Of a stretch of 64,000 nt of DNA, positions 5,747-60,269 are shown piece by piece. The first letter of the stretch is position 1. Each line of letters opens with the position of its first letter. The DNA is from Rhizophagus irregularis. Lineage: Eukaryota. Where the stretch lies: positions 2,852,001 to 2,916,000 of the forward strand of contig NC_089432.1 in assembly GCF_026210795.1 (NCBI RefSeq), read 5' to 3'. The position numbers and the translations under genes are program-made. The notes below the pieces were generated by a model. The model searched no databases. It had not been told where the DNA came from and was given only the letters and a program-made list of their open reading frames with translations.

Positions 5747-6003
5747 TTTATATATATATTTCTGGGTCCTTTCCAAATGATCATCACAAATTTTTTAACG
5801 AAATGCAAAATGAGACTGATACGCCACAGTCGCCACACTGCCACACAAAAAGTCACGTGCCGGTGATTTTTTGGACCATACATTTACTAATTTGATTATA
5901 TGGAAATTTATTTATAAGAACTATTCTGAATGATCATCAATTAATTTTTGACCATAAAGAACCATTTTTGTTGATAAAATTTTTTGGTTTACTTCATTGC
6001 ACT

Positions 6004-13300: not shown

Positions 13301-15630
13301 ATTCTTCAGGGCGTTTTTTACAGGGATGTTGAGCAGGCACAGGTGCGTCTTGATCAGGATTCTTTGTTGTAACTAATGAATCTAGGTAACGCACCACATT
13401 ATTCATCATGTCTTCATCTTCCTTCATTTTTTCCCAATCAATAGATGGAGCATCCTTCCTTTTCCCAATGCCATGAACATGAGGGCTGCCGCGGTGCTGC
13501 CACTCAAATCTATACCAATAATCTTCAAGATTCCATTTGGGAATTAACACTTTTTCTAAGAACAATTTGAAACGTTTTTCGAAAAACCAAGCGGAAATGT
13601 GAGGATTCTCAATCAAATCTTGTCGCCTATATCTATCAGCATCCTCTACATCCCCATGCGGCATAAGATTGTGTAACTCAGGCCAATGTAGGTCGGCTGC
13701 GCTGAATGTAAAAAATATCATTCCTTGTGATCCTAATTGCCTTATCATATCAGCAAGCTCATATCGCCTCTTTGTCCAAAACTGTCTAGTTCCACGTAAG
13801 GCTTCCCCAAATCTTACAATTCTGTCAGCCATGTGATTGTCTTTTTCTATCATCTCTTTTATTTCTTCAACGGTATACTGCTTATCATCTAAAACTTGCT
13901 TAACATATACTTTTGCTTCTTGCAGCGCCCTCCATCGCATTTGCGAATTTAACGCAAAATATCTCCAACGAGGATGACAGGCAAATCTTCCATCCTTATA
14001 TTTAAGTAAATGCGAAAAATATTCGGAAGGTTTAACCTCTCTAACGTGATTAGAACGAAGATCTCCATTCCCGGTTGGATACAAAGTAGGGAAGGCACAT
14101 GCAATATAACCGGGTGTTTGAAACTCATTGATAGGAGTTCCATCTATACTTGGCCACATAATAGGAAGATCATTATCTTGCATCCTGTTAAGAGTGTCGC
14201 CGATGGCTTGTTCTTCATTAGGTGATGGAAGTGGAGCAGGAACAAAGTTACTCCCTATCATATCTTCATAAACATCGTCATCATCGTTAAAGCGTTGTTC
14301 CACATCGTCAATTTGCGGAAGCTGATCATCAATTGGTCCGTCTTCAGGTAAGGATTGCAATACTTCTTCATCAATAACAATATCAGTATAATAACGATTA
14401 TTTTGTTTTAGCCAGCAAAGTGCGCGAGTGACCTTAGTGCGACGAACAGTGAAATTTTTGTATATCAAACTATTTGCAGATTTACGACGCACAATGAGAA
14501 CGTCAAGAGAAGACGGATTTCTGGGGAGCTGTGTTGCAAATTCTTCCACGTTTTGTGGAAAGTTTATAACATTACCACGATAAGCATACTGACCACCACG
14601 AAGACAATATACTGAAACAATAGGAAAGATCCTTGCAATCAACATTTCCTCTATTTCGGTAAGATCACGTAATTCTTCTGGCACATCACCAGGATCCATA
14701 TTGTTATCGGCAGAAAACTTTTTAACAGTATTTTTGTCATAGTAACAGCGACGACATTGTCCACTTATAATTTCGATGGATGGAAATCGTTCATTACACA
14801 CTGGGCAACAATTATTTACGAAGCTATTAATCTTAGTGCGAAATTCATGTAGGAGTTTCCTATCAGCTTCAGAAAGTCGAGATTCGTCAGAATCATCTTG
14901 CGTTGGTTCATCCTGTCTGTTGAGTTGCTCTTCAATATTTGATAGAGCAAGCCTTTCTTTTCTTTTCATATGGTAACGTTCACGTCTTTTTTGCAATCGT
15001 ATTTCACGTTGTTCTGCAGTCTCAGTTGCTCTTTTTACGCGTTTATTCTCTTTGTCCTGAGCCAGTCTATTTTCACGTTGCTCAACAGTTTCATCCGATC
15101 TGTTTTTTCGTTTTCGTAATGTATCACGAAGTGGCTGGGAAACCATTTGATTTACGATTTTACAAGCAATTAATATCAACGAAAACAACACAGCAATAAA
15201 AAATTCAGTGGTATATAATATTTATGAATACAATTGTTTTATTTTTTATTTATTTTTATTTTTATTTTAATTTTTAATTAAAAAAAACAAATACATTGTA
15301 AAAATTATAAATAATAAAAAAAAATTAATTACTATTTTTTGAATGCCGTAAAAAACTTTTAAGAAATAACTTAAAAGAATTTTAAGTAAGGGATGAAAAA
15401 AAACAAAATAATAAAATTAAATTTTTTGAAGATATTTTTAACGTGTAAACAGTCATGTGTCATGTGATTTTATAAAGATATTTTTAGAATCAGGGGCATA
15501 AAGATGCACGTAAACAAATCTAAGGTTACACCTGATCCTTAGATTTTATTGGCCATACACGCGTGCGGACAGACACCAACATGCATGGTATGGAGTAGTA
15601 TGGAAGTGTCCTACGCTTACGCTTCGGACA
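10399..15630 (-). mobile_element. Autonomous Helentron/Helitron2-type rolling-circle transposon
   Basis: Contains the RepHel ORF. 11-bp asymmetric subterminal inverted repeats GTCCGAAGCGT (10423-10433) and ACGCTTCGGAC (15619-15629). 3' palindrome AACGGTAACCGTT (10405-10417), then CTAG (10399-10402). 5' hairpin TGTCC...GGACA (15607-15630). T on both flanks on the minus strand, no TSD. Confidence 0.85.
10635..15146 (-). CDS. Rep/Helicase (HUH Rep plus PIF1-family helicase), ~1503 aa
   Basis: Single ORF, first ATG at 15146 (MVSQPLRD). Zn-finger CPVC..CRRC. Rep motifs FFTFS, EWQHRGSPHVH, YVSKYASK. Helicase motifs GTAGTGKS, IIDEKSM, GDFGQLPPV, AITIHKSQGLTL, GQSFVAISRV. Confidence 0.96.
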   Translation of the reverse strand: MVSQPLRDTLRKRKNRSDETVEQRENRLAQDKENKRVKRATETAEQREIRLQKRRERYHMKRKERLALSNIEEQLNRQDEPTQDDSDESRLSEADRKLLHEFRTKINSFVNNCCPVCNERFPSIEIISGQCRRCYYDKNTVKKFSADNNMDPGDVPEELRDLTEIEEMLIARIFPIVSVYCLRGGQYAYRGNVINFPQNVEEFATQLPRNPSSLDVLIVRRKSANSLIYKNFTVRRTKVTRALCWLKQNNRYYTDIVIDEEVLQSLPEDGPIDDQLPQIDDVEQRFNDDDDVYEDMIGSNFVPAPLPSPNEEQAIGDTLNRMQDNDLPIMWPSIDGTPINEFQTPGYIACAFPTLYPTGNGDLRSNHVREVKPSEYFSHLLKYKDGRFACHPRWRYFALNSQMRWRALQEAKVYVKQVLDDKQYTVEEIKEMIEKDNHMADRIVRFGEALRGTRQFWTKRRYELADMIRQLGSQGMIFFTFSAADLHWPELHNLMPHGDVEDADRYRRQDLIENPHISAWFFEKRFKLFLEKVLIPKWNLEDYWYRFEWQHRGSPHVHGIGKRKDAPSIDWEKMKEDEDMMNNVVRYLDSLVTTKNPDQDAPVPAQHPCKKRPEELSDDLQDYIELVNKLQRHTRCNPAYCLRVDRAGKNICRFGYPKEITNDTYLRDNKGQPELITARNDEYVNPHDRLQLQGWRANVDLKPILSMNTALQYVSKYASKSEPRSAAFSEILNKILNENAPDASSLPVFQGLLLHTVAERDISAQETCHLLLSIPLYHSSRRFVTLNLNKLTHRWLCGTGDNNEESFLADSEVGQTVQSPLQKYWVCPAELDDVSLFRLHLQYNFWKGQWKPCKKENIVRIWPRPSPQIDGPQWEEFCRVKVLLHVCHRDLSQLTENNTISWSELYYRHREIIENDPVDILGPPVDNLENESNDEDSDYEYEEFDDDEEQRPDWMILSEMRPDAILEGSSELGLREIDRNYDWVGDVRQRYTNIDLADSPNFIQNARNLYVEQNDNVTDRVVDPHTLNEKQKIIFERVESHYQALILNPGNVDALNVIVMGTAGTGKSYLINMIRSRLQEIARNNNITEHSPVLVLAPTGVAAFNIRGITIHSALSIPISNNKLDLNGERLKKLQKKLEGVEYLIIDEKSMVGRRMLALINMRLRQAFPQKQNKVFGGRSIILVGDFGQLPPVRDEPMYSKISRDTLSNEGIKTYRQFREVYKLDVIQRQSGDSDVQRKFRAILLRMRDGESTLDDWKELTTQFSNGTNITSAEFSDAICIMYRKSDVAEFNVNKLKSLNCPVALIKAIHTGGKETSKADPELAKGLEAQLLLARGARVMLRINLWTEVGLVNGSLGTVQEIIFEENQSPPSLPIAVLIEFDNYYGPAIVTEEGKRLVPVSPIRYSWEGKKVTCSRLQVPICLAWAITIHKSQGLTLQKAVIDIGKKEYAAGQSFVAISRVCALKDILFSPFSFERLQRIKSLKRLEERIEEESRLMTLQNSH

Positions 15631-17559: not shown

Positions 17560-19933
17560 ATGTCTAATATTAATAATAATAATAATAACGAAATGAAAAA
17601 TAACGGGAATACAGATGAATGGATAAATTGGATTGAAGAAGCGATTGATAAAGAATATTTAAAATATTATGAGTATGAAAATTTTAAAAATATTCAAGAA
17701 ATTGGATCCGGAGCATTCGGAAAAGTTTATCGTGCAAATTGGAAACATTTTGAAGATTATTTAGCGTTAAAATCTTTTTTTAATCTTAATAACGTCACCA
17801 TAAAAGAAATTGTTAATGAGGTAATTTTATAAAAATATATATACTATGTATATATATATTATTTATTTTTGCATATTCTTTGTAAATTTAAAGAAGTGTA
17901 ATTCAAATTTTTTTTTTTAAAAAAAAAACTTTTAAATGATTATACATTTATTATTTTAGCTCAAACTTCAACTTGACGTAAGCTTTCATAATAATATTAT
18001 TCGCTTTTGCGGAATTACAAAATTTGAATCAGGTATTGATAATTTTTACAATTACGTATATTTATTTTTAAAAATGTTTTTTTTGCGTAAATTCAATAAA
18101 TAAATAATTATTATTAATTTTTTAATTTTTTTTTTAGAAAATAAATTCGACCAATCAAAAAATTATTTGTTGGTAATGGAGTACGCGGACGGTGGTACTC
18201 TTCGAGACTATTTAAAGTATAACTTTAGTAGACTTACTTGGATCGAAAAATATAACTTGGCTTATCAATTAGCTTGTTCTATATCATGTCTACATGATGA
18301 AGGAATCGTTCATCGAGATTTGGTAATTTTTTATTATTAAACGATAATAATAATATTCCATAAAGTTAGCTTACTTTTGTTTGTACATTATAATAGCATT
18401 CTCGTAATGTGTTGGTTCATCAGAATTCCATCAAGTTGGCAGACTTTGGGTTATCGAAAAGGATTGATGATGCAACAAAAACACAATCAAAATTGCTTGG
18501 TATGATTCCTTATATTGACCCAAAAGTATTAGTGGATGAAAATTTAAAGTTAAATGAAAAGAGCGATGTATACAGTATTGGAGTATTATTATGGGAAATA
18601 TCAAGTGGAAATTCACCATTTCATGAAAAGACAAATAAGGTTAGTTTAATCTATAGTATTTTGCAAGGTAAAAGAGAAGAGATTATTCCTGATACTCCTA
18701 TTGATTATTCTAATCTCTATACTGGTAAATATGATTTCAATATATTAAATATAACGTTTCTTTATTATTTATCGAAATAATTGTTTAATCAGATACATAT
18801 TTTAATTATTAGATTGTTGGAATGGTGAACCAAGTAAACGACCATCCATACATGAAGTTGTTGATAGGTTAAGAAAATTTGTTATAAATTCAAACAGAAT
18901 AACAATTTATCAACAGAATGATATGTCTAATCAAACTAATATCAAGCCAAATGATAATCTAGGTTCAGTTAATAGTGGAAATTCGTTATCTGGGGAATTT
19001 TCTCAAGTGATCAAAAATTTTGGTAATACGAATTCAAATGAACTAGATATGATGTTTGCAGATAAATTCAGAGATAAAATTTCATCTGAGAAAATAAGCA
19101 TATTAGTTAATGAAGTAGTTGATCTCATTTTTAAAGAGATTAATGAAAGAAATGTTGCAAAGCGACGTCATGTTCTCAATTATCTTAATAATCATAATGT
19201 GAATTCAAAAGAAATTTATGATTGGTTATTATCTAATGAATCTAGTAATACAAGTTTTATTTTTTTACTTGGATATTTTAATTATGTGGGGATTGAAACA
19301 ACTAAGAATTATGAGAAAGCTTTCGATTTATTTATTAATGCACTAGATAAGGATAGCCTATTAATACAATTTTTTGTTGGAGAATGTTATGAAAATGGAA
19401 ATGGTGTTACAAAGAATGAAAATCTAGCTTTTGAATATTATGAAGAATTGTCCGATATAGGGTATGCAATGGGTCAATTTAAATTAGGCTGGTTTTATGA
19501 AAATGGATTAGGCGTTAAAAAAGATTTTAAATTAGCAGCTCAATTTTATGAAAAAGCTGCAAATAATGGACATTTGTTAGCTATGCATAATCTTGGAAAT
19601 TTCTATAGACGTGGGGTCGGTGTTGAAATGAATCATCATAAAGCTTTTGAATTATTTAAAAAATCAACTGAAGGAAAATATTCAGGTGGAATAATGATGT
19701 TAGGATATTGTTATGATCTTGGTATTGGAATTGATAATGATAAGCAAAAGGCAGTTGAGTTGTATGAAAAAGCAGCAAATTTAGGACATAAGGTGGCTCA
19801 ATATAATCTTGCTATGATGTATGAAATAGGTGACGTAGTTGAAAAAGATTTAGATAAAGCAATTTATTGGTATGAAAAATCTGCTAAGCAAGGAGATAAA
19901 GATGCTCGAAATAAGTTAGATGGATTTATATAA
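17560..19933 (+). CDS. Tyrosine-kinase-like protein kinase with Sel1-like repeats (5 exons), paralog of 6004-8467
   Basis: Exons 17560-17820, 17960-18032, 18138-18322, 18397-18724, 18813-19933, with the same intron positions as the first copy. GSGAFGKV, HRDLHSRN and DFG intact. Multiple Sel1 repeats. Confidence 0.93.
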
Positions 19934-21115: not shown

Positions 21116-22242
21116 AAACTATTTAATAAAGAATTTGTTAGTAATAATAGAATAAAATAAATAACAGTAGTTTAAATTATATGTAAGACGGGGTGATGAT
21201 CACCGGTGGCTGAAATTATGACGATCGACCAGCATTAAAAAATATAGTGCCGGTATAATTGATAATTCTGGCCAACGGTGATGATCACCCTGGTGATTTG
21301 AAGTAAAAATCATAATAAAATTAAATAAATAACTCATAACTTACCAACTAAAGAAATACAAAATAATTTTTAAATAAAGAATTTAGTTAGTTTAAATTAT
21401 ATGTAAATACTATGATATAATAGAATTAAATAATTAACATACCATCTATAAATAATTTTTTAAATAAAAGAATTTAGTTTAAATAAATTATAATAAAATT
21501 AAATAAATAACATATAACTTACCAACTAAAAGACATTACAAAATAATTTTAAAGAATTTAGTTAGCTTAAAATTATATAAATAATAGAAATATAGGTATT
21601 TATAACTTACACCCTAGTATTAATTAATTAATTATTAGTTAAATATAAATGTAATACAAATATTTTACTGCATATTAAATATATCACTTACAATCTGGTT
21701 ATTTAAATTAAGAATATAATTAGTTGAATTATATAAAATATTAAAACAAATAAATATAATATTGTAACTTACTATCTGTAATACAATTAATTATTAAATA
21801 GTTATTTAAATAAAGAATTTAGTTATTTTGAATATTATGCAAAATAAATAAAGTAAAAAAAAAATCTAATAACTATCAACTTACTGACTATATTGATTAC
21901 ATGAAATATAACAAAAATGATAAGTAATTCTATTATTATTCAATTGTAATATAACTTATTAACTTACGAGCTAAAAATATTTAATATAATTTTTTGTATA
22001 ATATAGTTAATTTAAATTATATTTATATATTATGTAAGGTATAAATAATTATAGGTAGTATTTAAATGTATTTACAAATAAAAATTTAATATTTTAGCAT
22101 GTTTAATATACCTTTAGATTCCCTGATGCTACTTTCTTTAAATTCTTCAGAAACTAATTTATTACATTGCAAGTTTGTTAAAAATTTTAGAGTTCTAATT
22201 ATATACTATATAATTATTACCTTTATTATTACTTTCAGCCAT
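21116..22242 (-). pseudogene. Orphan, truncated copy of the micro-exon N-terminal cassette (no kinase domain follows)
   Basis: Exons 22242-22221 (MAESNNK) and 22153-22112 (VSEEFKESSIRESK). Then 3-nt exons, each flanked by AG/GT: CTC (21968-70), TCA (21885-87), ATA (21773-75), ATT (21692-94), GGT (21611-13), TTG (21523-25), ATG (21443-45), TTG (21345-47), TTT (21116-18). Inverted homolog of ~34090-35000. Confidence 0.75.
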
Positions 22243-25588: not shown

Positions 25589-27063
25589 ATGACATCACTT
25601 TTTTATTCCAATCTTTCAAAAGACCTCTCCTTAATATTAAATAATGCTGACGATTACAATGTCATTATCCATGTTGGTGAAAACGACAATAAAAAAGAAT
25701 TTTATGCGCACTCAGTTATTTTACGTGCTCGTTCTTCTTATTTCAAGAGTGCACTTTCTACTAATTGGATTACAAAGAAAAATAATATGATTATATTTAA
25801 TAAACCAAATATTACTCCAGCCATTTTTGACATAATTATAAAGTAAGGATAATAATATTATTATTTTATTACATTATATTTGTTTTAATAAATTTTAATT
25901 TAAGATATATTTATACCGGAGAGCTTGATTTAACTAAACAACCGGGTGAAAATATTCTTGGATTGTTAATTGCATCTGATGAATTACTCCTTGAAGAATT
26001 ATTTGAATATGTTCAAAATTATTTAATTGAAAAACGAACTAGTTGGATTTATCAAAATTTCGTTCTCGTTCTTAATGATGTGTTTAGACTCGACAGTTGT
26101 AAGAAGCTACAAAATTATTGTCTTGAGTCTATCTGTAAGGATCCACTTCCATTTATTACTTCAAAATCTTGTCTGTTATTAGATGATAATGTCGTTTTTA
26201 GCTTGCTTAAAAGAGATGATTTACAAGTTAGAGAGATTATAATTTGGAACTTTTTAATCGAATGGGGTATTGAACAAACTCCTGATTTGCGAAGTGATAG
26301 AAATAATTGGAATAATGAGAATTACGAAACATTGGAGAAAACTTTAAATCAATTTATTCCTCTTATTCGGTTTGTGGGAATTTCTCATGAAGAATTAATT
26401 GATAAAGTTCAACCTTATAAGGCTATTATTCCCAATAATCTTTTAAAAGAAATTGAAGAATTTTGTTATAATAATATCTTACCAACTTTACCTCTCAGAA
26501 CGAGAAAAATTGAATCAAATATTATCAAATCAGAACTTATAAATTTAATAATAGTTAATTGGATTGACAAAAAAGATATTATGATTACTCGTACTGGTAA
26601 TGATCCTTTATATAAATTTAATCTTATTTATCGTGGTAGTCGTGATGGAATTAATAATAAATCATTTAAAAATAAGTGTAATGGAAGGGTAGCAAGTTTA
26701 GTTTTAATCAAAGTTTCAGGATCGAATAGAATCTTTGGTGGATATAGTTCTATTGGATTTAGTGCTTTAGGAAATAATCTTTGGAATAAATATGATGGAA
26801 TATTTTATGATTCATCAGATAATTTTATTTTTTCATTTGAAAATAGTGAAGATATACATAATATAAAAATAGGTCGTATAATAAATAATGATAAAGCTAT
26901 TCAAGATATTGAAACTTGTGGTTTTAATTTTGGTTGGAGTTCATTATCAATGATTAATACTAATTTAAATATTGTTAATCATGATATTTATGAAAGGATT
27001 TTACCTACAGAAAAAATTTTTTATATTACGGAATTAGAAACTTTTTCTGTAACTAAATTATAA
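25589..27063 (+). CDS. BTB/POZ-BACK-TLDc domain protein (2 exons)
   Basis: Exons 25589-25842 and 25905-27063 (phase-2 GT-AG intron). BTB motif FYAHSVILRARSSYF, BACK-like helical region, TLDc motifs LIYRGSRDG, IFGGYS, FIFSF, ELETF. Confidence 0.93.
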
Positions 27064-34091: not shown

Positions 34092-37000
34092 ATGGCTCAC
34101 AGTAATGATAAGGGTAATAATTATATGTAATATATATAGCGTATAATTAGAATAAAATTTTTAAACAAATTTGCAATGTAATAAAATTAGTTTCCGAAGA
34201 ATTTGAAGGAAGTACTAGTACCAAGGAATCTGAAGGTATATTGAACAGGCTGAAATATTAAATTTTTGTTTGCATACTATCTATAATTGTACCTTACATA
34301 ATAATTTAAGCAAACTAACTATTATACAAAAAATTATATTAAATAATTTAGCTCGTAAGTTAATAGGTTATATTACAATTGAATAATAATGGAATTACTT
34401 ATCATTTTTGTTATATTTCATGTAATTAAATAACTTATTTAATAATTAATAATACTATAGTCAGTAAGTTATTAGTTATTTAAATATTTGGTTTTTTACT
34501 TTATTTTATTTTACATAATATTCAAAATAACTAAATTCTTTGTTTAATAACTATTTGATTAATTAATTGTATTACAGTTGGTAAGTTACAATATCATATT
34601 TATTTGTTTAATATTTTATATAATCCAACTAATTATATTCTTAATTTAAATGACCAGATTGTAAGTAATATATTTAATTTGCAGTAAATATTTTGTATTA
34701 CATTTATATCCAACTAAATAGTTAATTAATAATACTAGGGTGTAAGTTATATATACCTATATTTCTGTTATTTATATAATTTAAATTAATTAAATTAAAA
34801 TTATTTTGGAATTTCTTTTAGTTGGTAAGTTATATGTTATTTATTTAATTCTATTGTTACTTAATTTAAACTAATTAAATTTCTTTATTTAAATAGATAG
34901 TAAGTTATAAGCTATTTATTTAATTCTATTATTACTTGTTTATATAATATTTATATATAATTTAAACTAACTAAATTTCTTTATTTAAATAGATAGTAAG
35001 TTATAGGTTATTTATTTTATTACTTGTTTATATAATATTTACATATAATTTAAATAACTAAATTCTTTATTTAAATAGATTGTAAGTTATAAGTTATTTA
35101 TTTAATTCTATTATTACTTATTTATATAATATTTATTTATAATTTAAACTAATTAAATTATTTATTTATAATATTATTTAATAATATAGGGTGTAAGTTA
35201 TTTATTTAATTCTATTATTACTTATTTATATAATATTTACATATAATTTAACTAACTAAATTCTTTATTTAAAAAAATATTTTGTAATTTCTTTTAGTTG
35301 GTATGTTATAACTTATAAGTTATCTATTTAATTCTATAATATTTATTTACATTAGTTGTTTACATATATGATTTATATATAATTTAAAATTAACTTCTTA
35401 TTTAAAAAATTATTTTGTAATTTCTTTTAGTTGGTAAGTTATAAGTTTTTTATTAATCCTATTATTACTTGTTTATGTGATAATTAAATATAATTTAAAC
35501 CAATTAAATTCTTTATTTAAATTATTTAAATAGATGGTAAGTTATAAGTTATTTAATTCTATTATTACTTATTTATATAATATTTACATATAATTTAAAC
35601 TAACTAAATTCTTTATTTAAATAGATGGTAAGTTATAAATTATTTATTTAATTCTATTATTACTTATTTACATATAATTTTAACTGACTAAATTCTTTAT
35701 TTAAATAGATTGTAAGTTATAAGGATTGATTTAATTCTATTATTACTTATTTATATAATAATATTTACATATAATTTAAATTAACTAATAAATTCTTTAT
35801 TTAAATAGATGGTAAGTTATAAGTTATTTATTTAATTCTATTATTACTTATTTATATAATATTTATTATTTACATACAATATAAACTAACTAAATTCTTT
35901 ATTTAAAAATTTATTTTATAGGTGGTATGTTATTTATTTAATTCTTTTATTACTTATTTATATAATATTTATAATATGAGTAAATTTATTCATCGCACGT
36001 GCGATGCATCGCCACTTTCCTTTTTTGTAAATTATTTATGTTGATCAACCTGCTTATACATCGCCACCCCCCTTAAAATGGCAATGATAAACATAAAAAT
36101 TTGCATCGCACGTGCGATAAATAAATTATTTCTTATAATATTTACGTGTAATTTAAACTAATAAAATTCTTTATTTAAATAGATTGTAAGTTATAAGTTA
36201 TTTATTTAATTCTATTATTACTTATTTATATAATACTTATATATAATTTAAACTAACTAAATTTTTTATTTATAGGGCGTAAGTTATATTTATTTAATTC
36301 TATTATTACTTACTAATTATATAATATTTACATACAATTTAAACTAACTAAATTCTTTATTTAAAAAATTATTTATAGATGGTATGTTATTTATTTAATT
36401 CTATTATTACTTATTTATATAATATTTTCATATAATTTAAGCTAACTAACAAATTCTTTATTTAAATAGATGGTAAGTTATGAGTTTTTTATTTAATTCT
36501 ATTATTAGTACTTATTTATATAATATTTACATATAATTTAAACTAACTAAATTCTTTATTTATAATATTATTTAATAATATAGGGCGTAAGTTATTTATT
36601 TAATTCTATTATTACTTATTTATATAATATATACATACAATTTAAACTAACTAAATTCTTTATTCAAAAAATTATTTCATAGATGGTATGATGTTATTTA
36701 TTTAATTCTATTATTACTTATTTATATAATATTTACATATAATTTAAACTAATTAAATTCTTTATTTATAATATTATTTAATAATATAGGGCGTAAGTTA
36801 TTTATTTAATTCCATTATTACTTATTTATATAATATTTATTATTTACATACAATTTAAACTAACTAAATTCTTTATTTAAAAAATTATTTTATAGATGGT
36901 ATGTTATTTATTTAATTCTATTATTTAATATTTACATATAATATGAATTAACTAAATTCTTTATTTAAATAGATAGTAAGTTATAAGTTATTTATTTAAT

Positions 37001-39476
37001 TCTATTATTACTTGTTTATATAATATCTATATATAATTTGAACTAACCAAATTCTTTATTTAAATAGATTGTAAGTTATAAGTTATTTACTTAATTCTAT
37101 TATTACTTATTCATATAATATTTACGTATAATTTGAAGTTTTAAACTAACTAAATTCTTTGCTTAAAAAATTGTTTTATAGATGGTATGTTATTTATTTA
37201 ATTCTATTATTACTTATTTACATAATATTTTCATATAATTTAAACTAACTAAATTCTTTATTGAAAAATTATTATTTAATAATATCTGATAGGGAGTAAG
37301 TTATTTATTTAATTCTATTATTACTTATTTATCATATAATTTAAACTAAATTCTTTATTTAAAAAATTATTTAATATTATAGGGCGTAAGTTATTCTATT
37401 ATTACTCATTTATATAATGTTTACATATAATTTAAACTAACTAAATTCTTTATTAAAAAATGATTTTGTAATTTCTTTAGTTGGTAAGTTATAGGTTATT
37501 TATTTAATTCTATTATTACTTATTTGCATATAATTTAAACTAACTAAATTCTTTATTTAAATAATTATTTTATAGATGGTATGTTATTTATTTAATTCTA
37601 TTATTACTTATTTATACATATAATTTAAAGTTTTAAACTAACTAAATTCTTTATTTAAATAGATACTAGTAAGTTATAAGTTATTTATTTAATTCTATTG
37701 TTACTTATTTATATAATTTACATGTAATTTAAACTAACTAAATTCTTTATTTTTATAGATGGTATGTTACTTATTTAATTCTACTATTACTTATTTATAC
37801 AATATTTATATACTAATTTAAACTAACTAAATTCTTTATTTATAAAAATTGATTTAATAATATAGCTTGTAAGTTATTTGTTGTTTGTATTTTATATAAT
37901 ACTTATTTGTTAATTGAATTTTTTCATTCAAATTTCTGTTACTTTAGTTGGTAAGTTGTAGGTTATTATTATTATATATATTTATACAAAAACTAAGACA
38001 TACAGTATATTATATTAAATTTTTATTTAAATTTTAGAGTAAGTGTTGATTTTAATCTTATAACTTTTGATATAAATTTCAATATAATTTCAATTATTTA
38101 AATTTGTAGATTTGGAAAAAGTGGAAATGTAAATATGGATAACTTTATTTTAGAAAAAAAATTAAAATGGATTCCTTATGATAAATTTAAAAATATTGAA
38201 TATCTTGATAAAGGAGGATTTGGTACTATATATAAAGCTAATTGGTTAATTAATAATGAAGATAAAGAAGTAGTTCTTAAATGTCATGATAATTTAAGTG
38301 AAAATTTAAATGAATTTTTAAATGAAGTATGATAATATATTATTTTATTTTATAATTTAAATCATAATTTATTTATACTAATATATTATGATTTTTTTAT
38401 AGTGGAAATATCACAAAAGTTGTTTAGGTTCAGATAAAATTATTTATTTTTATGGCTTTACAAAAGCTCCAAATACTTTGAAATATATGATGGTAATGGA
38501 TTATGCAAATGGAGGTAATTTAAGAGGAAACTTAACAAGAATAATCGAAATTGTTTGGAATCAAAAATTATATATGTTACATGAAATTATTTCTGGACTT
38601 AATAATATACATGAACAAAATCTTATTCATTGTGATTTTCATGATGGTAATATTTTAAATCATTATGAGAATAAAATTTATATTAGTGATTTAGGATTAT
38701 GTAAACCTGTAAAATCATTTATGAAAAAATATGATATTTATGGTGTTATACCATTTATGGCACCTGAAGTTTTAAGAGGCAAATCTTATACTCCAGCTAG
38801 TGATATTTATAGTTTTGCTATGATTATGTGGGAATTTACATCTGGGGTAACACCATTTAATAATAGAGCACATGATGTTCAACTTAGTTTAAGTATTTGT
38901 AAAGGTGAACGTCCTGAAATTATCAAAAATACTCCACAATGTTATGTAGATTTAATGGAAAAGTGTTGGGATGAAAACCCATTAAAAAGGCCATCTTCTA
39001 AAGAAGTTTTGAATATTATTAAAAATTGGGTTTTTTTTTCAGGTAAAGGGGAAGTTGAAGATATTAATGAAAAATTGAAATGTAATATTATGGAATTTAT
39101 AAATGCACCAATTGGGCATAACAATAATCTTTCTATTGAATCTCATCCACAGTCATGTTATACAAGTCGCTTACATGGTTTTACTAGTAAACAATTGAAT
39201 GAAATTCTTGGAAGTAGAGATTTACAAGCTTATTATTCAAGTCAATCTACTAGTGGAAAAGTGAATGAAATTCTTGAAAGTGAAGATTCACAAGCTAGTG
39301 TAAAAGTGGATGAAATGCTATTAAGTGAAAATTTGGATGATTGTATATTTAATTTGAAGTCATTAGGTATGTAATATAGTATATAAAAAGAATTAAATTT
39401 TATGAATTATTTATATGAAATTAATTTAATTATTTAATTATTTAATTAATTAGATATTAAAACAGACAAAAAATAA
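34092..39476 (+). CDS. Tyrosine-kinase-like protein kinase with a micro-exon-encoded N-terminal segment (predicted 42 coding exons, ~460 aa)
   Basis: Exons 34092-34113 (MAHSNDK), 34191-34235 (VSEEFEGSTSTKESE), 37 micro-exons in 34352-38038, then 38110-38326, 38403-39366, 39454-39476. Kinase motifs KGGFGTIY, VVLK, HCDFHDGN, DLG, APE, SDIYSF. The kinase part is certain; the N-terminal model rests on splice signals and frame closure. Confidence 0.8.
34236..38109 (+). other. Tandem intron/micro-exon array (38 introns, 37 micro-exons)
   Basis: Repeating unit GTAAGT/GTATGT ... (A)ACTAAC-type branch site ... YAG, followed by a 3-nt exon. Introns are about 70-130 nt; one is 258 nt because of a MITE. 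Confidence 0.85.
35978..36132. mobile_element. MULE-like MITE inside a micro-exon-array intron
   Basis: TIRs GAGTAAATTTATTCATCGCACGTGCGATGCA / TGCATCGCACGTGCGATAAATAAATTATTTC. Perfect 9-bp TSD TTATAATAT. Confidence 0.88.
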
Positions 39477-43747: not shown

Positions 43748-44593
43748 ACTTGTTATTGAGATTATCATTGTTTTTATTAGTTCAAAAATCTGAATTCTTT
43801 CTTTATTTGGTGATACAATAATTTGTTTTGTCATAATTATGCTCTATTAACTTTTGGTTTTTGTATTATTTACTGGAAAAAAATTATTAAACCAAGTAGC
43901 CAAAAGGAGGAGAAAATTAAAATGAGGATGCAACAAAGAAGTTTAAGCATTGTTGTAACAATATTTCTATCATAAATATCTTAATATCTTATTAAATGTA
44001 ATGCTGGATGCACAGATATATGAAATGGGAATAACTGAACGGAGTAAAAGTAGATAAAGCTTCGAATAATTTATAAAAAAATTAAACATAACTCGCATAA
44101 ATGAAGCAAAAAAAGAATTAAATTAAGTGAACTCTAACTTTAATTACAATCATTTTCCATGATTCAAAAAAGTTGTGATTTCAACAGTTAAAGGGTAGGT
44201 ATTTATTATATAAATTTTATTATTATAAATTATATTTAATAGGGTGCCTATTAACCTAAGCATTTACATAAAATAGATTTTCTATAATAAAGCACTGTGA
44301 GGGTATAAGTTATAAAAAATATCAACCTAAACATTAAAAAATTTTGGTAAAAAAAAATTAGAGATTAAAAGTTTATTACGGCTTAAAAAAATTTTGATTA
44401 ATATTGCATGATCGGCATCATCAATTAGACGAGTTTTTTAATTCTTGACATTATAAGTTTGTTATTTACGTCAGTGACGTTACACAATACAAATTGTGCG
44501 ACAATATCGGAATCACCATTTCCGAAAATTTAAATTTATTCATAGTAAAATGTGATACACAAATACCTCTCTTTTTCTCCTTTAGTTTACAAT

Positions 44594-46165
44594 ATGTCAT
44601 GTTCAAAAATATTTTCAGGAAATTTTCCCGAATTAACTTATGAAATTATAAAATATTTTCAAAATGATTTTTTAACTTTGCATTCATGTATTTTAGTTAA
44701 CAGATTATGGTGTCGTTTAGCAACTCCATTATTATGGGAAAATCCTTTTTCAATTCATACTGAAAATTATAATTATATTGAAATTTACTTACAATATTTA
44801 AATGATGATTTTAAAGCGAAATTAAAAGAATATAATATTATTATTAATTCATTACCTTCAAATACACTCTTCAATTATTCTAGTTTTTTAAAATATTTGA
44901 ATATATCTAAGTTTATTTCTTCTGTTATAAATTGGCTTGAAGCTACTAATGAAACTTCAATCTATTCTGATTTTATAAGATTAACATCTGATATATGTTT
45001 ATCATTATTGAAAATATTTATTGAAAATGAAGTAAATTTAAATGTTCTTGAAATTGACTTCAAATATACTCCTTATAAGATAAATTTAGATGATATTCTT
45101 GAGTTAATTTTACAGAATACAAATTTCATTCACAATATTAGAAATTTAAACCTTTATATTGTAGAAAATAAGGAACTTAAACATCGTATATTACCAATAA
45201 TTGAGTTACATCAAAACCTTAAAAAAATTTTATTAGATAATAGTTTTTTTTCATATCAATCATTATTGTTATCAAAAGATTATAATTGTTCAAACACCTT
45301 AAGTACAATTATTTTCTTTTACGTTGACTTTGAAGGTATAATCAATTTAAATAGAATATTTGAACAATTAAATGTTTTAGAATCCGTTCATATAATTCAT
45401 TGTTCTTCTTTAAATACTAGTTTTACTCAACAAATTATTAATTTAACTAAACCATTTAAATTAAAGTCTTTATTTATAGAAAATATAGAAGAGTTATCAG
45501 AAATTGAATCATTACAATTATTAATACAAAAGTCTTGTGATTATTTAGAAAATTTTGGGTATGATTGCGGACTTATTTATCCACATGAGCTAAATACTGG
45601 GATCCCTCAGGGAATACATCAATTATTAGATTTAATTATGATACATTGTAAAAATATCAAATTTCTTGATCTGGATATAAATGATAATCGGATTATTTTT
45701 CCAGCACTCAATTTAATTGAAAATATTAAACATAATCTTAATTATCTTTCAATCGATATATATGATAATATTAAAGAAAATAATTCATTTGTAATACAAA
45801 GATTAGGAGAAATTATTCCTTTTAAATTAGAATATTTGCATTTATATCTTTATTACATTGAAGCATGTGATTTTGAAGTATTTTTAAAAAGTTCTCAAGA
45901 TACATTTATTAAGAAACTATTGATCAATAACTTTAACTTTACTGAAGGTCAAGATATTTTACCCTCTATAAAAACATATATCATGAAAAAGAGAAGGGTT
46001 AAGTATTTAGCTATTAATGGTGCTTTCTTTAGATCTGAATTCGTTAGTGATGAATTGTTTTCATTGAAAGACGAAGTGAAGGAATTTATGTTGTATGATA
46101 TTAAAGTGCAAAGTTATCATGACTCAATAATTAACTTGTATGATTATATGAAAGAAGTTAATTAA
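44594..46165 (+). CDS. F-box-like N-terminus with degenerate LRR-like C-terminus (expanded glomeromycete-type family)
   Basis: Intronless ORF from ATG 44594. F-box-like FPELTYEIIKYF..LHSCILVNRLWCRLATPLLWENPF, followed by LxxL-rich repeats. Confidence 0.85.
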   Translation: MSCSKIFSGNFPELTYEIIKYFQNDFLTLHSCILVNRLWCRLATPLLWENPFSIHTENYNYIEIYLQYLNDDFKAKLKEYNIIINSLPSNTLFNYSSFLKYLNISKFISSVINWLEATNETSIYSDFIRLTSDICLSLLKIFIENEVNLNVLEIDFKYTPYKINLDDILELILQNTNFIHNIRNLNLYIVENKELKHRILPIIELHQNLKKILLDNSFFSYQSLLLSKDYNCSNTLSTIIFFYVDFEGIINLNRIFEQLNVLESVHIIHCSSLNTSFTQQIINLTKPFKLKSLFIENIEELSEIESLQLLIQKSCDYLENFGYDCGLIYPHELNTGIPQGIHQLLDLIMIHCKNIKFLDLDINDNRIIFPALNLIENIKHNLNYLSIDIYDNIKENNSFVIQRLGEIIPFKLEYLHLYLYYIEACDFEVFLKSSQDTFIKKLLINNFNFTEGQDILPSIKTYIMKKRRVKYLAINGAFFRSEFVSDELFSLKDEVKEFMLYDIKVQSYHDSIINLYDYMKEVN

Positions 46166-46878: not shown

Positions 46879-47541
46879 AAAGTCACATTGAACTAGACAA
46901 TTTTGAAAAATTACATTACTAATTTGTTTAATAAGTGGGTTAAAAAAAAATGTTGATCAGTTTATAGCCACCTGTAGTAAATATTTCACTAATTTTATTT
47001 CATTTTTTTTTTTTTGAATTTTCAAGATTTTTGATTTAAATATGTGTAAATAGCTGAAGGATACGATTTAGATAATTTTGAGAAAAGTGGGAACAAATTT
47101 TAAGACAATTAATATGTTTGTAATTAAAATAAATCTGGTCATATTTAGATTCCTAGTCTGAATTATGTACTCCGCTAAATTTATATCATTATGTTATGGT
47201 TATCTCCAAAATAATTGATTGGTGTAATGGATTTGATCAATAGATTCATATTATGAATGTTGACCATTTTTGTTGACGATAACATAATAATTTATCACTA
47301 AATTAGAATAAATTTCATAAATTGGAAAAATTTAATATGTATACAATCTATAATAATTTTGTCCAGAATTATTAAAGTGAAACAATCGCTGATTGACATA
47401 TAATTACGTTATGATGTTTACGCAAAATTGGCGAAAATTGTGCGACAAATATCGGGATCGTCATTCCGAAAATTATACTTAAACAATCCATAGTAAAATG
47501 TGATACACGATTACCCTCTCTCCCCTTCTTTCGTTTACAAT

Positions 47542-49086
47542 ATGTCATGTTCAAAAATATTTTTAGGAGATTTGCCCGAATTAACTTATGAAGTTGTAAA
47601 ATATTTTCATAATGATTTTTCAACTTTATATTCATGCGTTTTAATTAACAGATTATGGTGTCGTTTAGTGACTCCATTATTATGGGAAAATCCTTTTTCA
47701 ATCCGTACCAGGAACTATAATTATTTAGAAGTTTACTTACAATATTTAAATGATGATATTAAAACACAACTAAAAGAATATAAAGTTATTAATAATTCAT
47801 TACCTTCAAATACATTCTTTAATTATTCTATGTTTTTAAAACATTTGAATATACATAAGTTTGTTTTATCTTTTGAAAATTGGCTACGAGCTAAAACTCC
47901 AACCTTCGAAATTAGATTTACAATACTATTGAATGATATATGTACATCACTATTTAAAATATTTATCGAAAATGAGATAAAATTACATACTCTTGAACTT
48001 GAGATTTACTTTTTATATAGTGACACAATTTATGATAATATTATTAAATTAATTTTAAAGCATCCAAATTTCATTCATAATATTAGAAATCTAAAATATC
48101 TTGTGCGTGATTTTTGTACTAATATTCCAGTTAATGATCATCTATTACAAATAATTAAATCACATCAAAATTCAAAAAAAAATTTATTATCAGGATATAT
48201 TGATTTTCGTCTATATCAATCATTATTATTTTCAAAAGATTTTAATTGTTCAAATACCTTAAATACAATTACATTCTATCGAGCCAATTTGATTCATTTT
48301 ACTAGTAACATATTCGAACAATTAAATGTTTTGGAATCTGTTCATATTATTTATTGTTATTCTTTAAATGAGAATTTTCTTCAACAAATTAATAATTTAA
48401 CTAAACCATTTAAATTAAAATCTTTATTTATGGATGGTTTAATATCAATCGAATCAATAGAATTATTATTACAAAAATCTGGAAGTTATTTAGAAAATTT
48501 TGGGTATAAAATTCGCAATTCACTAATAAGTCAACGACATTTAGAATTAATTATAAAATATTGTAAAAATCTCAAATTTCTTGATTTTCATGGATATGAA
48601 AATCGGGTTACTTTTCGAGTAATCGAAAATATTATTAAACAAAATCTTAATTATCTTTCAATCAATATTGGGAGAGATTGTTATGGTAATATTAAAGGTA
48701 GTTCAATCATATTACAAAATTTAGGTCAAGTTCTCCCTTCTAAATTAGAATACTTGAGTTTGACTCTTACTATTAAAAGAAGTAAATTTAGAGTATTCTT
48801 AGAAAATTCCCAAAATATTTTTATTAATAAATTATTAATAATGCAAATAGGTAGTTATGATATTTTACATTATACAAAGGAATTTATTATGAATGAAAAA
48901 AGAGTCAATTATTTAGCTATCAGGAACAGTTATAATATAGATTTGTATGATTTGAGAGATGTAGTAAAGGAATTTAAGTTACATAATATTAAAGTTCGAA
49001 GTTTTTATGATTTAAGTTTATCTGATAAACTTAACCATCCTAGAGATTCTTTAAATAATAATCTTATTGATTATTTACGAGGATGA
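47542..49086 (+). CDS. F-box-like/LRR-like protein, tandem paralog of 44594-46165
   Basis: Intronless ORF from ATG 47542 with LPELTYEVVKYF..LYSCVLINRLWCRLVTPLLWENPF. Upstream sequence is shared with the first copy. Confidence 0.85.
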   Translation: MSCSKIFLGDLPELTYEVVKYFHNDFSTLYSCVLINRLWCRLVTPLLWENPFSIRTRNYNYLEVYLQYLNDDIKTQLKEYKVINNSLPSNTFFNYSMFLKHLNIHKFVLSFENWLRAKTPTFEIRFTILLNDICTSLFKIFIENEIKLHTLELEIYFLYSDTIYDNIIKLILKHPNFIHNIRNLKYLVRDFCTNIPVNDHLLQIIKSHQNSKKNLLSGYIDFRLYQSLLFSKDFNCSNTLNTITFYRANLIHFTSNIFEQLNVLESVHIIYCYSLNENFLQQINNLTKPFKLKSLFMDGLISIESIELLLQKSGSYLENFGYKIRNSLISQRHLELIIKYCKNLKFLDFHGYENRVTFRVIENIIKQNLNYLSINIGRDCYGNIKGSSIILQNLGQVLPSKLEYLSLTLTIKRSKFRVFLENSQNIFINKLLIMQIGSYDILHYTKEFIMNEKRVNYLAIRNSYNIDLYDLRDVVKEFKLHNIKVRSFYDLSLSDKLNHPRDSLNNNLIDYLRG

Positions 49087-57825: not shown

Positions 57826-60057
57826 TTAAACTTTTTTCAACATATTTAATTTTAATTTTGCATCTTGATCTCCTTGTTCAGCAGCTTTTTTGTACCAATA
57901 AATTGCTTGATTTATATCCTTTTTAATTCCATTACCATTTTCATACATTAATGCAAGATTAAATTGAGCTGTATCATTTTCTAAATTTGCTGCTTCTTGA
58001 TATAATTCAAATGCCTTTTGTACATTAACATCAGTTCCAATTCCATTATCATAACAATATCCTAAAAGATTTATTCCACCTGAATTTTTTCCATCCGCTG
58101 ATTTTTTAGATAATTCAAAAGCTTTATTATCATCATCAAGTCCAAATTCACTTCCATGTATATGTAATAATGCAAGATTATATTGAGCTAAATTATTACC
58201 TAAATCTGCTGCTTTTTGATATAATTCAAATGCTTTTATCCTATTAACATCAGTTCCTATTCCATTATAATAACAATATCCTAATAAATTTATTCCACTT
58301 AAATACTTTTTTTCTACTAATTTATTAGATAATTCAAAAGCTTTAATATGATTTATAATAGTACCATCACCATCTATATACATTAAAGCAAGACTAAATT
58401 TAGCTATATTATTACCTAATTCGGCTGATTTTTTATATAATTCAAAAGCTTTTTGTTTATTAATAATAGTTCCAATTCCATAATAATTAAAATATCCAAG
58501 TAAATAAATAGAATTAGAATTATTTTGATTATTTAAGAGCCAATTATAAATTTCTTTTATAGAAATATTAAAAGTATTAATAATTTTAAAAACATCTTTT
58601 CTTCTTGTTTTTTCTTCTTTTCCTTCATTTACTTCCTTAAAATAAAGTTTAACTAATTCATCAATAATAATACTTAAATCCTCTTCATAAATGTTTCCAT
58701 GAATATTTTGTGTTGTAGGTTCGATTTCCTTTATATTAATTTTATTAAAATTTGGAATAATTTGAAATAATTCTTCATTCGATGAATCATTTGTATTTGA
58801 TGTATTACCATAATCAAAATTAAGTTTAGGTTTCTGTGTTATCGTTTTGTTTTTTGTAATAATTTCTTTTAATTTAGCAACTACTTGATCCATTGTTGGT
58901 CTATTATCTGGTTCATTATCCCAGCATTCTAAACAAGAAACAAAATGAGATCTTTCAAATTTAATGTTTTTAAAAATTAAATCATTATATTTACCTGTAT
59001 AAAGAATAGAGTAATCAAGAGGAGTATTTTGAACAATCGTCTCTCTATAACCTTGTAAGATTCGCATAACCAAACCAGTATCAAATGGTTCATCCTTAAA
59101 TGGTAGTCTACCACTTGATATTTCCCATAATAATACACCAATACTATATACATCACTCTTCTCATTTAATGGAGATTGCTTTATTATATTAATATTATTT
59201 AACCATTTTGGATCAATATAAGGAATTTTATCGAATGAACTCGATCGTTGATTATTAGATTCTTCAATTCTTTTTGATAAAAATCCAAAATCGGCTAATT
59301 TGATAGTATTTTGATGAACTAATATACTGCCAGGGTGCTATTATAAAAATATAATAATAAAATATATAAGTGATCAAACATAAAAATAATTTTTAAAATA
59401 ATTTTAATGAAATAAGTCAATTAAGTCAATTACCAAATTACAATGTACGATCCATCTATCATGTAAAAATAATACAGCACATGTCAATTGATATGCCATT
59501 TCATGTTTATCTTTCCAAGTAAGATTATTAAAATTTTCTTTTAAATAGCTTCGAAGGGAACTACCATCAGCATACTCCATTACAAGTAAACATTTCTTAG
59601 TTTGATCAATTAGATTTTCTAGAAATAAATGAGTTTATTGATATAAAAAAAAAGTAAATATAATATTCTTAAAAATATTTAATATTTTTTCTTACCTTTG
59701 TCAGTGATACCAAAAAATTTAATAATTTTTTTATTTAAATCAACTTCACGACGAAGTTCAAGCTAATATTATTAAAATTAATATTAATTCTATTACGAAT
59801 AAATTAATCGTATATAATAAAATTACCTCGTGGATGATTTCCTTTACATTTGTGCTGTTAGCGTTAAAGGATTTAAGTACAAAACATTTTTCCGAATTTT
59901 TCCAATTTGCACGACAAACATTTTTACCAATTTTTTTAATATTATGAAAATGTTCGTATTCATAATATTTTATATCATTTTCAGAAATGGCTTTTTCAAT
60001 CCAAATAATCCAGTCATTTGGATTTTTGTTAATTTGTACGTCGTTTTTGTCAGACAT
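57826..60057 (-). CDS. Pseudokinase (TKL-like) with Sel1-like repeats (5 exons)
   Basis: Same exon layout as the + strand kinase-Sel1 genes. Gly-rich loop deleted (KKIGKNVCRA), catalytic loop reads HCNLHPGS, DFG retained. Long Sel1 array. Confidence 0.88.
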
Positions 60058-60269
60058 TGAAAAAAATTATTATAGAGAGTACTATGGAGTTAAAAAAAAA
60101 AATAAATAAATAAAATAAAAATGAAAAGGCCAAACATTAACCCTTTATAAGTAAACATATTAGTCAGGTCATTGATCTGTTACGTTATTTGGTTAGTCAA
60201 TTATGCACGTTATCTATTATGCATAATAGTTGTTTTGTGATTTGTCACGTGATATTTCGATATTGTTAA

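What the first reader, a model, noticed from the sequence alone, without database searches (positions are those of the whole stretch)
34092..39476. Kinase whose N-terminal peptide is spelled by 37 tandem micro-exons, about one codon per intron
Seen: the 'satellite' at 34236-38109 parses as YAG|exon|GTAAGT or GTATGT(A) again and again, usually with a CTAAC-type branch motif upstream. Exons in order: CTC(34352) TCA(34461) TTG(34578) ATT(34658) GGT(34739) TTG(34822) ATA(34897) ATA(34993) ATT(35079) GGT(35190) TTG(35298) TTG(35431) ATG(35534) ATG(35625) ATT(35709) ATG(35809) GTG(35922) ATT(36183) GGC(36276) ATG(36379) ATG(36470) GGC(36584) ATG(36683) GGC(36790) ATG(36896) ATA(36973) ATT(37068) ATG(37182) GGA(37293) GGC(37383) TTG(37481) ATG(37576) ATACTA(37663) ATG(37759) CTT(37866) TTG(37948) A(38038). 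Joined in phase 1 after the ATG exon and the 45-nt exon, they give MAHSNDKVSEEFEGSTSTKESE-ALIDWFDNNWFVDDDYGDWHDGHGHDNYGRLDDTNAFE-FGKSGNVNMDNF..., stop-free and in frame with the kinase. Established: micro-exon genes that vary by exon skipping are known (Schistosoma MEGs); I know of no dozens-long 3-nt exon array on a fungal kinase. Inference: a hypervariable N-terminal sensor, bait or docking segment on a signalling kinase, invisible to standard gene finders and repeat maskers.
Basis: partly seen in the sequence, partly recalled or inferred. Interest (0 to 1): 0.97.

Follow-up and report, generated by a model that had tools for sequence, protein, structure and literature searches.

The report
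One-codon exons build a kinase N-terminus
In the mycorrhizal fungus Rhizophagus irregularis, an apparent 3.9-kb satellite is a row of 37 tiny exons (35 of three bases), the last ten of which are found spliced letter for letter onto a protein kinase exon in two sequencing runs, likely adding a fast-varying acidic-aromatic segment that may act as a sensor, as similar arrays are reported to do in truffle immune receptors.

Summary
Confirmed, with RNA support. All 37 AG|exon|GTA(A/T)G units lie where stated (35x3, 1x6, 1x1 nt). Contigs of two runs from two studies match the kinase exon without a difference and carry, before acceptor 38110, 30 of 30 letters of the predicted join of the last ten micro-exons, 1-nt exon included. 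This fixes phase 1 and excludes a hydrophobic reading frame used by several public gene models of paralogs. Only these 30 letters were seen; the unlaid lengths (127, 140) fit full inclusion. Exon skipping was not seen. The gene is an R. irregularis tyrosine-kinase-like kinase annotated only from ATG 38135 or later. The layout is family-wide: 26 of 29 related soil-metagenome kinase loci with upstream DNA carry such units. The third exon base is the most variable column of its repeat class, so diversity seems to arise in DNA. The principle is in print: tens of codon-sized exons in Tuber melanosporum NLR (nank) genes. This scan also noted such arrays on other DNA (HET genes, a kinase tail), several without RNA data. 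New here: a kinase N-terminus, Glomeromycotina, a 1/4-nt phase-adapter exon. A sensor role is inferred.

The parts
34092..34113 (+). Exon 1 (ATG, 22 nt, ends in phase 1)
   Evidence: Sequence; same N-terminus in public models of paralogs P0005, P0049, P0143. Its use at this locus was not seen in RNA.
34191..34235 (+). Exon 2 (45 nt, Glu/Ser-rich, phase 1-1)
   Evidence: Sequence; covered by poly(A) reads, mostly of paralogs (X23: 27 of 34 reads at 34213 lack 3 nt); codon usage fits phase 1 better than phase 0.
34236..38109 (+). Array of 38 introns and 37 micro-exons (35 x 3 nt, 1 x 6 nt, 1 x 1 nt; 112 nt) coding a 38-residue acidic-aromatic segment
37182..38038 (+). The ten micro-exons seen joined in transcripts (last 2 nt of 37182-37184, then 37293, 37383, 37481, 37576, 37663-37668, 37759, 37866, 37948, 38038)
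   Evidence: Loose end before 38110 in X1 and X2 equals the predicted join in 30 of 30 letters.
38038..38038 (+). Single-nucleotide exon that adapts the phase-1 array to the phase-2 kinase acceptor
   Evidence: Joint 38038 to 38110 with GT..AG ends in X2; 8 of 8 relatives with a 1- or 4-nt last exon have a phase-2 acceptor.
38110..38326 (+). First kinase exon (Gly-rich loop, catalytic Lys); holds the ATG 38135 used by public models
   Evidence: X1 contig matches all 217 nt without a difference; P0001 residues 1-64.
38403..39366 (+). Main kinase exon (PF07714)
   Evidence: 100% identical to R. irregularis EXX61485.1; Pfam E 1.3e-42; intron 38327-38402 spliced in 4 of 4 runs laid (reads there include paralogs).
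39454..39476 (+). Last exon with the stop codon
   Evidence: GT..AG joint in X1 at depth 22.5; C-terminus of GBC22045.1 = P0124.
35925..36182 (+). Longest array intron (258 nt): a normal unit with a roughly 150-nt, more GC-rich insertion; splice signals intact
21118..22242 (-). Second, truncated copy: exon 1, exon 2 (42 nt) and nine 3-nt exons, with no kinase exon behind it
   Evidence: first six introns 90-96% identical to those of the main copy, and no kinase match on that strand nearby.

Best explanation
The array is a set of real spliced exons, about one codon each, and it likely builds a rapidly diversifying N-terminal recognition or docking segment on a cytosolic tyrosine-kinase-like kinase. 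SHOWN: the last ten micro-exons are joined exactly to the kinase exon, in phase 1, through a 1-nt adapter exon. INFERRED, strong: all 37 are included in the main mRNA, giving a protein of about 460 residues with a Glu/Ser-rich start, a 38-residue segment (11 acidic, 8 aromatic, 3 His, 1 basic) and the kinase. INFERRED, moderate: the repeat unit is 'intron plus one codon', so unequal crossing-over or gene conversion between near-identical introns adds, removes or swaps whole codons without breaking the frame, and changes of the third exon base (first codon position in phase 1) switch residues; diversity is therefore made mainly in DNA, between paralogs and strains, with exon skipping as a possible second layer. 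INFERRED, weak: the segment binds a variable partner (nonself cue or signalling partner) and gates the kinase. Odds: spliced phase-1 coding array about 0.95; DNA-level diversifier under selection about 0.65; nonself sensor in particular about 0.35.
For:: two runs, two studies, 30 of 30 letters; unlaid lengths 127 and 140 equal 112 plus 15 or 28 nt; an X2 contig of a paralog has eight triplets joined between two retained introns, 11 of 12 letters equal to micro-exons 3-6. Family: 26 of 29 loci with at least 150 nt upstream carry units, 21 carry two or more; spacers are 79 x 3 nt, 4 x 1 nt, 4 x 4 nt. 26 of 31 give array phase 1 by a fixed rule; 0 phase-1 stops in 42 junctions against 2.5 expected, P 0.037. 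Codon usage z: phase 1 -0.52, phase 0 -4.65. In ten like units exon base 3 has heterozygosity 0.73 against a mean of 0.09 and a maximum of 0.60 in 98 intron columns, while bases 1-2 are invariant. Precedent for the same design in fungal NLR sensor domains.
Against: Only 30 of the 112 nt were seen at this locus; exons 1 and 2 were not seen joined to the array here. X1 and X2 are RNA by guess and by their spliced introns, not by record; the run recorded as poly(A) RNA (X23) listed no loose end at 38110, having only 4 paralog-like reads there. No skipped isoform was listed (contigs drop rare forms). Base-3 variability may tune donor strength or reflect old variants kept through gene conversion; in the six GG-class units 3 of 100 intron columns are as variable. 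Between the two window copies 2 of the first 7 triplets differ, no clear sign of either constraint or excess. Relatives' phase-1 codon usage is itself below expectation (z -2.49). No ligand, protein, phenotype or population data. The metagenome loci are short, partly related to each other and of unnamed species.
Confidence: 0.6

Rival explanations
1. Tolerated linker: the exons are spliced and translated, but the segment is a disordered spacer; intron-plus-codon units multiply by drift because each duplication keeps the frame.
For: Paralogs differ widely in length and sequence; any order of the 3-nt exons is stop-free at internal junctions; a truncated copy lies 12 kb away; no function shown.
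Against: Exon base 3 varies far more than neutral intron columns in the AT class; the layout persists across kinases of only 51-76% identity despite the cost of 38 splicing events; the same design sits on recognition proteins in truffle.
Confidence: 0.25
2. Splicing throttle or isoform generator: the point of the array is post-transcriptional; retention of any intron or loss of the 1-nt exon gives an early stop, and skipping of 3-nt exons gives many in-frame isoforms, as reported for truffle nank genes.
For: Partly spliced forms exist (retained introns around joined triplets; retained intron before the 1-nt exon); skipping the whole array shifts the frame; the weaker GTATG donor follows a G-ending exon in 8 of 8 cases.
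Against: Both runs show the same full inclusion of the last ten exons; no skipped form listed. Partly spliced contigs can be ordinary intermediates. Not exclusive of the best explanation.
Confidence: 0.1
3. Phase-0 reading: an ATG at 34105, the triplets read as Leu/Ile/Met/Gly and a 5-nt last exon give a membrane-anchored kinase.
For: The frame is open and strongly hydrophobic (mean hydropathy 2.55); ten public models of paralogs carry such Gly/Met/Ile/Leu strings.
Against: The transcript junction has the 1-nt exon, not the 5-nt one, in both runs; relatives give phase 1 in 26 of 31 and phase 0 in 2 of 31; codon usage z -4.65.
Confidence: 0.02
4. Non-coding satellite or recursive-splicing ratchet; the kinase starts at ATG 38135 as annotated.
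For: Tandem Repeats Finder calls it; 3 of 3 public models of the locus start at or after 38135.
Against: Micro-exon letters are kept in the transcript contigs, which a ratchet or an untranscribed satellite would not give; spacer length fixed at 3 nt.
Confidence: 0.02

Closest known systems
Codon-sized micro-exons of the Tuber melanosporum nank (NACHT-ANK) NLR family (Iotti et al. 2012, PMID 22289772; not held; known to me only from passages of PMC4986451, PMC3689799, PMC13449251, PMC10197012, PMC9815663)
   Same: Tens of 3-bp exons in an expanded gene family of a mycorrhizal fungus, spelling a variable protein segment.
   Different: Here the host is a kinase with no NACHT or ankyrin domain, the segment is N-terminal rather than the C-terminal sensor, the fungus is a glomeromycete, a 1- or 4-nt adapter exon closes the array, and alternative splicing was not seen.
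Schistosoma micro-exon genes (MEGs; passages of PMC10526429)
   Same: Runs of very short exons of lengths divisible by three.
   Different: MEGs have 10-20 exons, mostly 15 bp, with introns of 100-5000 bp, and code small secreted proteins with a signal peptide; here 37 exons of 1-6 nt, introns mostly 71-130 nt that are tandem copies of one unit, about 8% of a kinase.
Isolated 1-3 nt exons (Coprinopsis cinerea, passages of PMC12230235; Arabidopsis single-nucleotide exon, PMC4674806, abstract start only)
   Same: 1-nt and 3-nt internal exons are spliced in fungi and plants.
   Different: In C. cinerea 27 exons of 3 nt are spread over 26 genes; this one gene has 35 in a row.
Expanded protein kinase repertoire of R. 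irregularis (2,533 members, passage of PMC10234402); PF07714 tyrosine-kinase-like kinases
   Same: The catalytic part is an ordinary member.
   Different: The N-terminal micro-exon segment is absent from or misframed in the public models examined; some relatives have a Cys-rich stretch at this place instead.

Membership tests
Tuber nank codon-sized micro-exon NLR genes | Tens of tandem 3-bp exons spliced into the mRNA | tested here: met
   37 units; last ten seen joined in two runs.
Tuber nank codon-sized micro-exon NLR genes | Alternative splicing of the micro-exons | tested here: inconclusive
   Same full inclusion in two contigs, no skipped form listed; contigs drop rare variants and raw reads of this locus were too few.
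Tuber nank codon-sized micro-exon NLR genes | NACHT plus ankyrin (NLR) architecture, array in the C-terminal sensor | tested here: not met
   Pfam finds only kinase families; the array is N-terminal. Works like, is not a member.
Tuber nank codon-sized micro-exon NLR genes | Expanded paralog family sharing the layout | tested here: met
   26 of 29 related loci; second copy in the window; the count in the R. irregularis genome was not made (no genome held).
Schistosoma MEG | Short exons divisible by three | tested here: met
   36 of 37.
Schistosoma MEG | 10-20 exons of mostly 15 bp, long introns, small protein made mostly of micro-exons | tested here: not met
   37 exons of 1-6 nt, introns 71-258 nt, 38 of about 460 residues.
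Schistosoma MEG | N-terminal signal peptide | tested here: not met
   By inspection only, no predictor run: acidic, hydrophilic N-terminus; segment hydropathy -1.21.
PF07714 tyrosine-kinase-like protein kinase | Profile match above the curated cut-off | tested here: met
   146 bits against 23.1.
PF07714 tyrosine-kinase-like protein kinase | Catalytic motifs (Gly-rich loop, Lys, catalytic-loop Asp/Asn, D-x-G, APE) | tested here: met
   GGFG, VVLK, HCDFHDGN, DLG, APE in order; the strict G-x-G-x-F-G pattern did not match (first Gly replaced).
PF07714 tyrosine-kinase-like protein kinase | Phosphotransfer activity and substrate | not testable with these tools
   Needs an assay.
Recursive splicing ratchet points (definition recalled) | Bases between AG and GT are absent from the mature RNA | tested here: not met
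   They are present.

The most novel reading that the evidence does not exclude
Arbuscular mycorrhizal fungi carry a large family of kinases whose N-terminal sensor is written one codon per exon and is re-dealt both by recombination between identical introns and by frame-safe exon skipping: a combinatorial nonself-recognition repertoire wired directly to a kinase, convergent with truffle NLRs and HET genes, and hidden so far because the arrays are masked as satellites or read in the wrong frame.
Probability: 0.25. Interest if true: 0.9.

Novelty: new variant of a known kind. Interest (0 to 1): 0.72.

Why it matters
It is a transcript-backed case of extreme exon density (35 three-base exons and a one-base exon in 3.9 kb) in the model AM fungus, which makes exon definition at 1-3 nt directly testable. 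It shows that a sizeable kinase subfamily of Glomeromycotina is misannotated at the N-terminus (truncated or misframed). It extends the codon-sized exon design from NLR sensors to kinases, which points to a recurrent fungal way of building variable protein segments, and offers a concrete candidate for how part of the unexplained kinase expansion of AM fungi may read variable cues.

Tried and rejected
Run search: no RNA holder listed on record; not used as evidence. Exact DNA pattern of the first kinase exon in metagenome contigs: 0 hits. Array unit in viral contigs: 0 hits. Protein searches with N-terminal parts (10 and 32 hits) found no full-length model with the phase-1 segment; P0013 and P0049 hold short phase-1 pieces; one search scored only 8000 candidates. 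Shuffling exon order is not a useful frame test (78% stop-free). The 'signal column' figure was not used because the alignment staggered the intron ends. Nearest-neighbour test (base 3 differs in 6 of 13 pairs against about 4% in flanks) is biased by pair choice; one search was used instead. Rows: L030 was dropped as a duplicate of L027, and two single hits (L050 TAA, L078 TGG) are probably chance matches; one search keeps L030 and its 5 exceptions (L018, L019, L054, L058, L078). 37 of 80 loci lack the first kinase exon and 14 more have under 150 nt upstream. X3 behaves like DNA (covers introns, runs across acceptor 38110 unspliced). A short exact match at 37812-37847 draws reads of an unrelated transcript. 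No fold or complex was predicted. Sequence look-up in earlier findings gave only unrelated prokaryotic notes; none for this genome.
Full report
1. Observation. The region 34236-38109 is 12-18% GC and is called a satellite of about 100 bp period. Joined after exon 1 (34092-34113) and exon 2 (34191-34235), the frame is open through the kinase. Skipping the whole array shifts the frame and stops early. A branch-like word lies in 25 of 36 introns. The 26 core introns average 88% identity, with lengths from 72 to 130 nt and several different 3' ends, yet each is followed by three bases and a donor. The weaker GTATG donor follows a G-ending exon in 8 of 8 cases, GTAAGT follows G in 9 and other bases in 20 (the units are related, so this is not an independent-sample test).

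2. What the gene is. The main exon is 100% identical to R. irregularis protein EXX61485.1, a PF07714 kinase with catalytic motifs in order. The three public models of this locus begin at ATG 38135 or further downstream. 1143 relatives passed the search; nearly all of the 120 listed are named from Rhizophagus species, the rest are unnamed JGI or NCBI records. Ten of the 159 proteins fetched carry Gly/Met/Ile/Leu-rich strings before the kinase, which is what the triplets give in phase 0. This raised a rival: an ATG at 34105 and a 5-nt last exon give an open, strongly hydrophobic frame.

3. RNA. No holder was on record as RNA. Four runs were laid on the gene and four on 37720-38330. In X1 a 346-nt contig of depth 21.6 matches 38110-38326 without a difference and has 127 further letters before 38110; in X2, from another study, a 220-nt contig matches 38110-38189 without a difference and has 140. 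In both, the 30 letters shown equal the predicted join of the last ten micro-exons in 30 of 30 places, including the 6-nt and the 1-nt exon. That string occurs on neither strand of the window and differs from the genomic, skip-all and phase-0 predictions. X2 also shows the joint 38038 to 38110 with GT..AG ends. The lengths fit 112 nt plus 15 or 28 nt of exon 2, but those letters were not shown. X1 and X2 are RNA by the tool's guess; both also splice 38327-38402. A second X2 contig, from a paralog, has eight triplets joined between two retained introns, matching micro-exons 3-6 in 11 of 12 letters. Against: X23, recorded as poly(A) RNA, gave no listed loose end at 38110 (4 paralog-like reads there; about a quarter of the run was read), X24 was laid only, whose tables were cut (435 loose ends and 27 joints not shown), and X3 behaves like DNA. 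No skipped isoform was listed.

4. Relatives. A scan of metagenome contigs kept the best 80 of 266 loci, 51-76% identical in the kinase. 43 hold the first kinase exon; 29 of these have at least 150 nt upstream; 26 of 29 carry at least one AG|1-6 nt|donor unit and 21 carry two or more. The 87 spacers are 79 of 3 nt, 4 of 1 nt, 4 of 4 nt, none of 2, 5 or 6. The introns resemble the window's unit. By a fixed rule 26 of 31 loci put the array in phase 1, 3 in phase 2 and 2 in phase 0; all 8 loci with a 1- or 4-nt last exon have a phase-2 acceptor, and 18 of 23 with a 3-nt last exon have a phase-1 acceptor. In 42 neighbouring pairs there are 0 phase-1 stops (2.5 expected, P 0.037) and 9 phase-2 stops. 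The other kinases of the window (with Sel1-like repeats, label recalled) show no such cluster. A truncated second copy lies at 22242-21118 on the minus strand.

5. How it likely works. The unit of repetition is an intron plus one codon's worth of exon. Any gain, loss or exchange of a unit keeps the frame, and no pairing of this array's internal exons makes a stop. In phase 1 the third exon base is the first base of the next codon. In ten like units this base has heterozygosity 0.73, above all 98 flanking intron columns (mean 0.09), while bases 1 and 2 are invariant; in six GG-class units it is 0.60, matched or passed by 3 of 100 columns. I read this as likely diversifying selection on the encoded residues; tuning of donor strength or old variants kept through gene conversion are not excluded. 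The product is a hydrophilic 38-residue segment, 11 acidic, 8 aromatic, 3 His, set where some relatives have a Cys-rich stretch. Acidic-aromatic disordered stretches often serve as docking motifs (general knowledge, recalled, not tested). I therefore commit to a variable recognition or docking segment diversified mainly in DNA (0.6), with a tolerated linker (0.25) and a splicing-level device (0.1) as rivals.

6. What is known. Passages of five papers (PMC4986451, PMC3689799, PMC13449251, PMC10197012, PMC9815663) state that its nank NLR genes carry tens of codon-sized exons that are alternatively spliced; the primary paper is not held and I saw nothing of it. MEG features come from passages of PMC10526429, isolated fungal 1-3 nt exons from passages of PMC12230235, the kinase count from passages of PMC10234402, in whose passages on exon, intron, kinase, splicing and tandem I saw no mention of such arrays; its supplements and annotation files were not seen and could hold a correct model. 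Ten searches (listings and abstract starts) showed no report of micro-exon arrays in AM fungi or on fungal kinases; the library lacks most subscription papers. The scan has noted similar arrays on other DNA, behind a kinase and before HET genes among others; these notes are unchecked and several say that no RNA data were obtained.

7. Verdict. Real, spliced and family-wide; it works like the truffle nank arrays but is not a member of that family. New variant of a known kind. Interest 0.72: surprising to a splicing or AM-fungus specialist and directly testable, but the principle is in print and the function is inferred.

Noticed in passing
window 22242-21118 (-): Truncated paralog: exons 1-2 and nine 3-nt exons, an insertion with inverted-repeat look at about 21300-21190, no kinase behind it; probably a dead copy.
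   Followed up: partly
window about 35978-36130: About 150-nt insertion with a repeated CATCGCACGTGCGAT word near both ends inside one array intron; possible small mobile element.
   Followed up: no
L022, L025, L027, L030, L032, L033, L035, L037, L039, L052, L054, L064, L070 and others, behind the kinase: A recurrent AG|9 nt|GTA(A/T)G unit after the kinase exon (twice in L039 and L070), a possible conserved 9-nt 3' micro-exon.
   Followed up: no
L054 101-400: A 3-nt unit upstream of an exon that keeps the Cys-rich stretch: array and Cys-rich part can co-occur.
   Followed up: partly
P0007, P0028, P0030, P0040, P0065, P0079, P0126, P0140, P0150, P0151: Public models with Gly/Met/Ile/Leu-rich strings that are probably micro-exon arrays read in the wrong frame; P0079 would hold about 65 units.
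   Followed up: partly
P0122, P0138, P0142, P0152, P0156, P0159: The Glu/Ser-rich exon 1-2 module annotated as part of non-kinase proteins; probably mis-joined models where the array broke the prediction.
   Followed up: no
window 10635-15221 (-): Intronless 1528-aa frame at 39% GC with helicase-like motifs; looks like a Helitron-type element (label recalled, no scan run).
   Followed up: no
window 4016-4192: 73-bp repeat, 2.4 copies, holding TTAGGG words; its AG..GTAAG matches look like chance.
   Followed up: partly
window 25831-27063, 44549-46165, 47497-49086, 5896-8467, 17659-19933, 57826-60066, 62010-63822: Neighbours: a BACK-TLDc protein, two related 530-aa frames (the first scanned, no Pfam match), and four kinases followed by Sel1-like repeats (label recalled).
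   Followed up: partly
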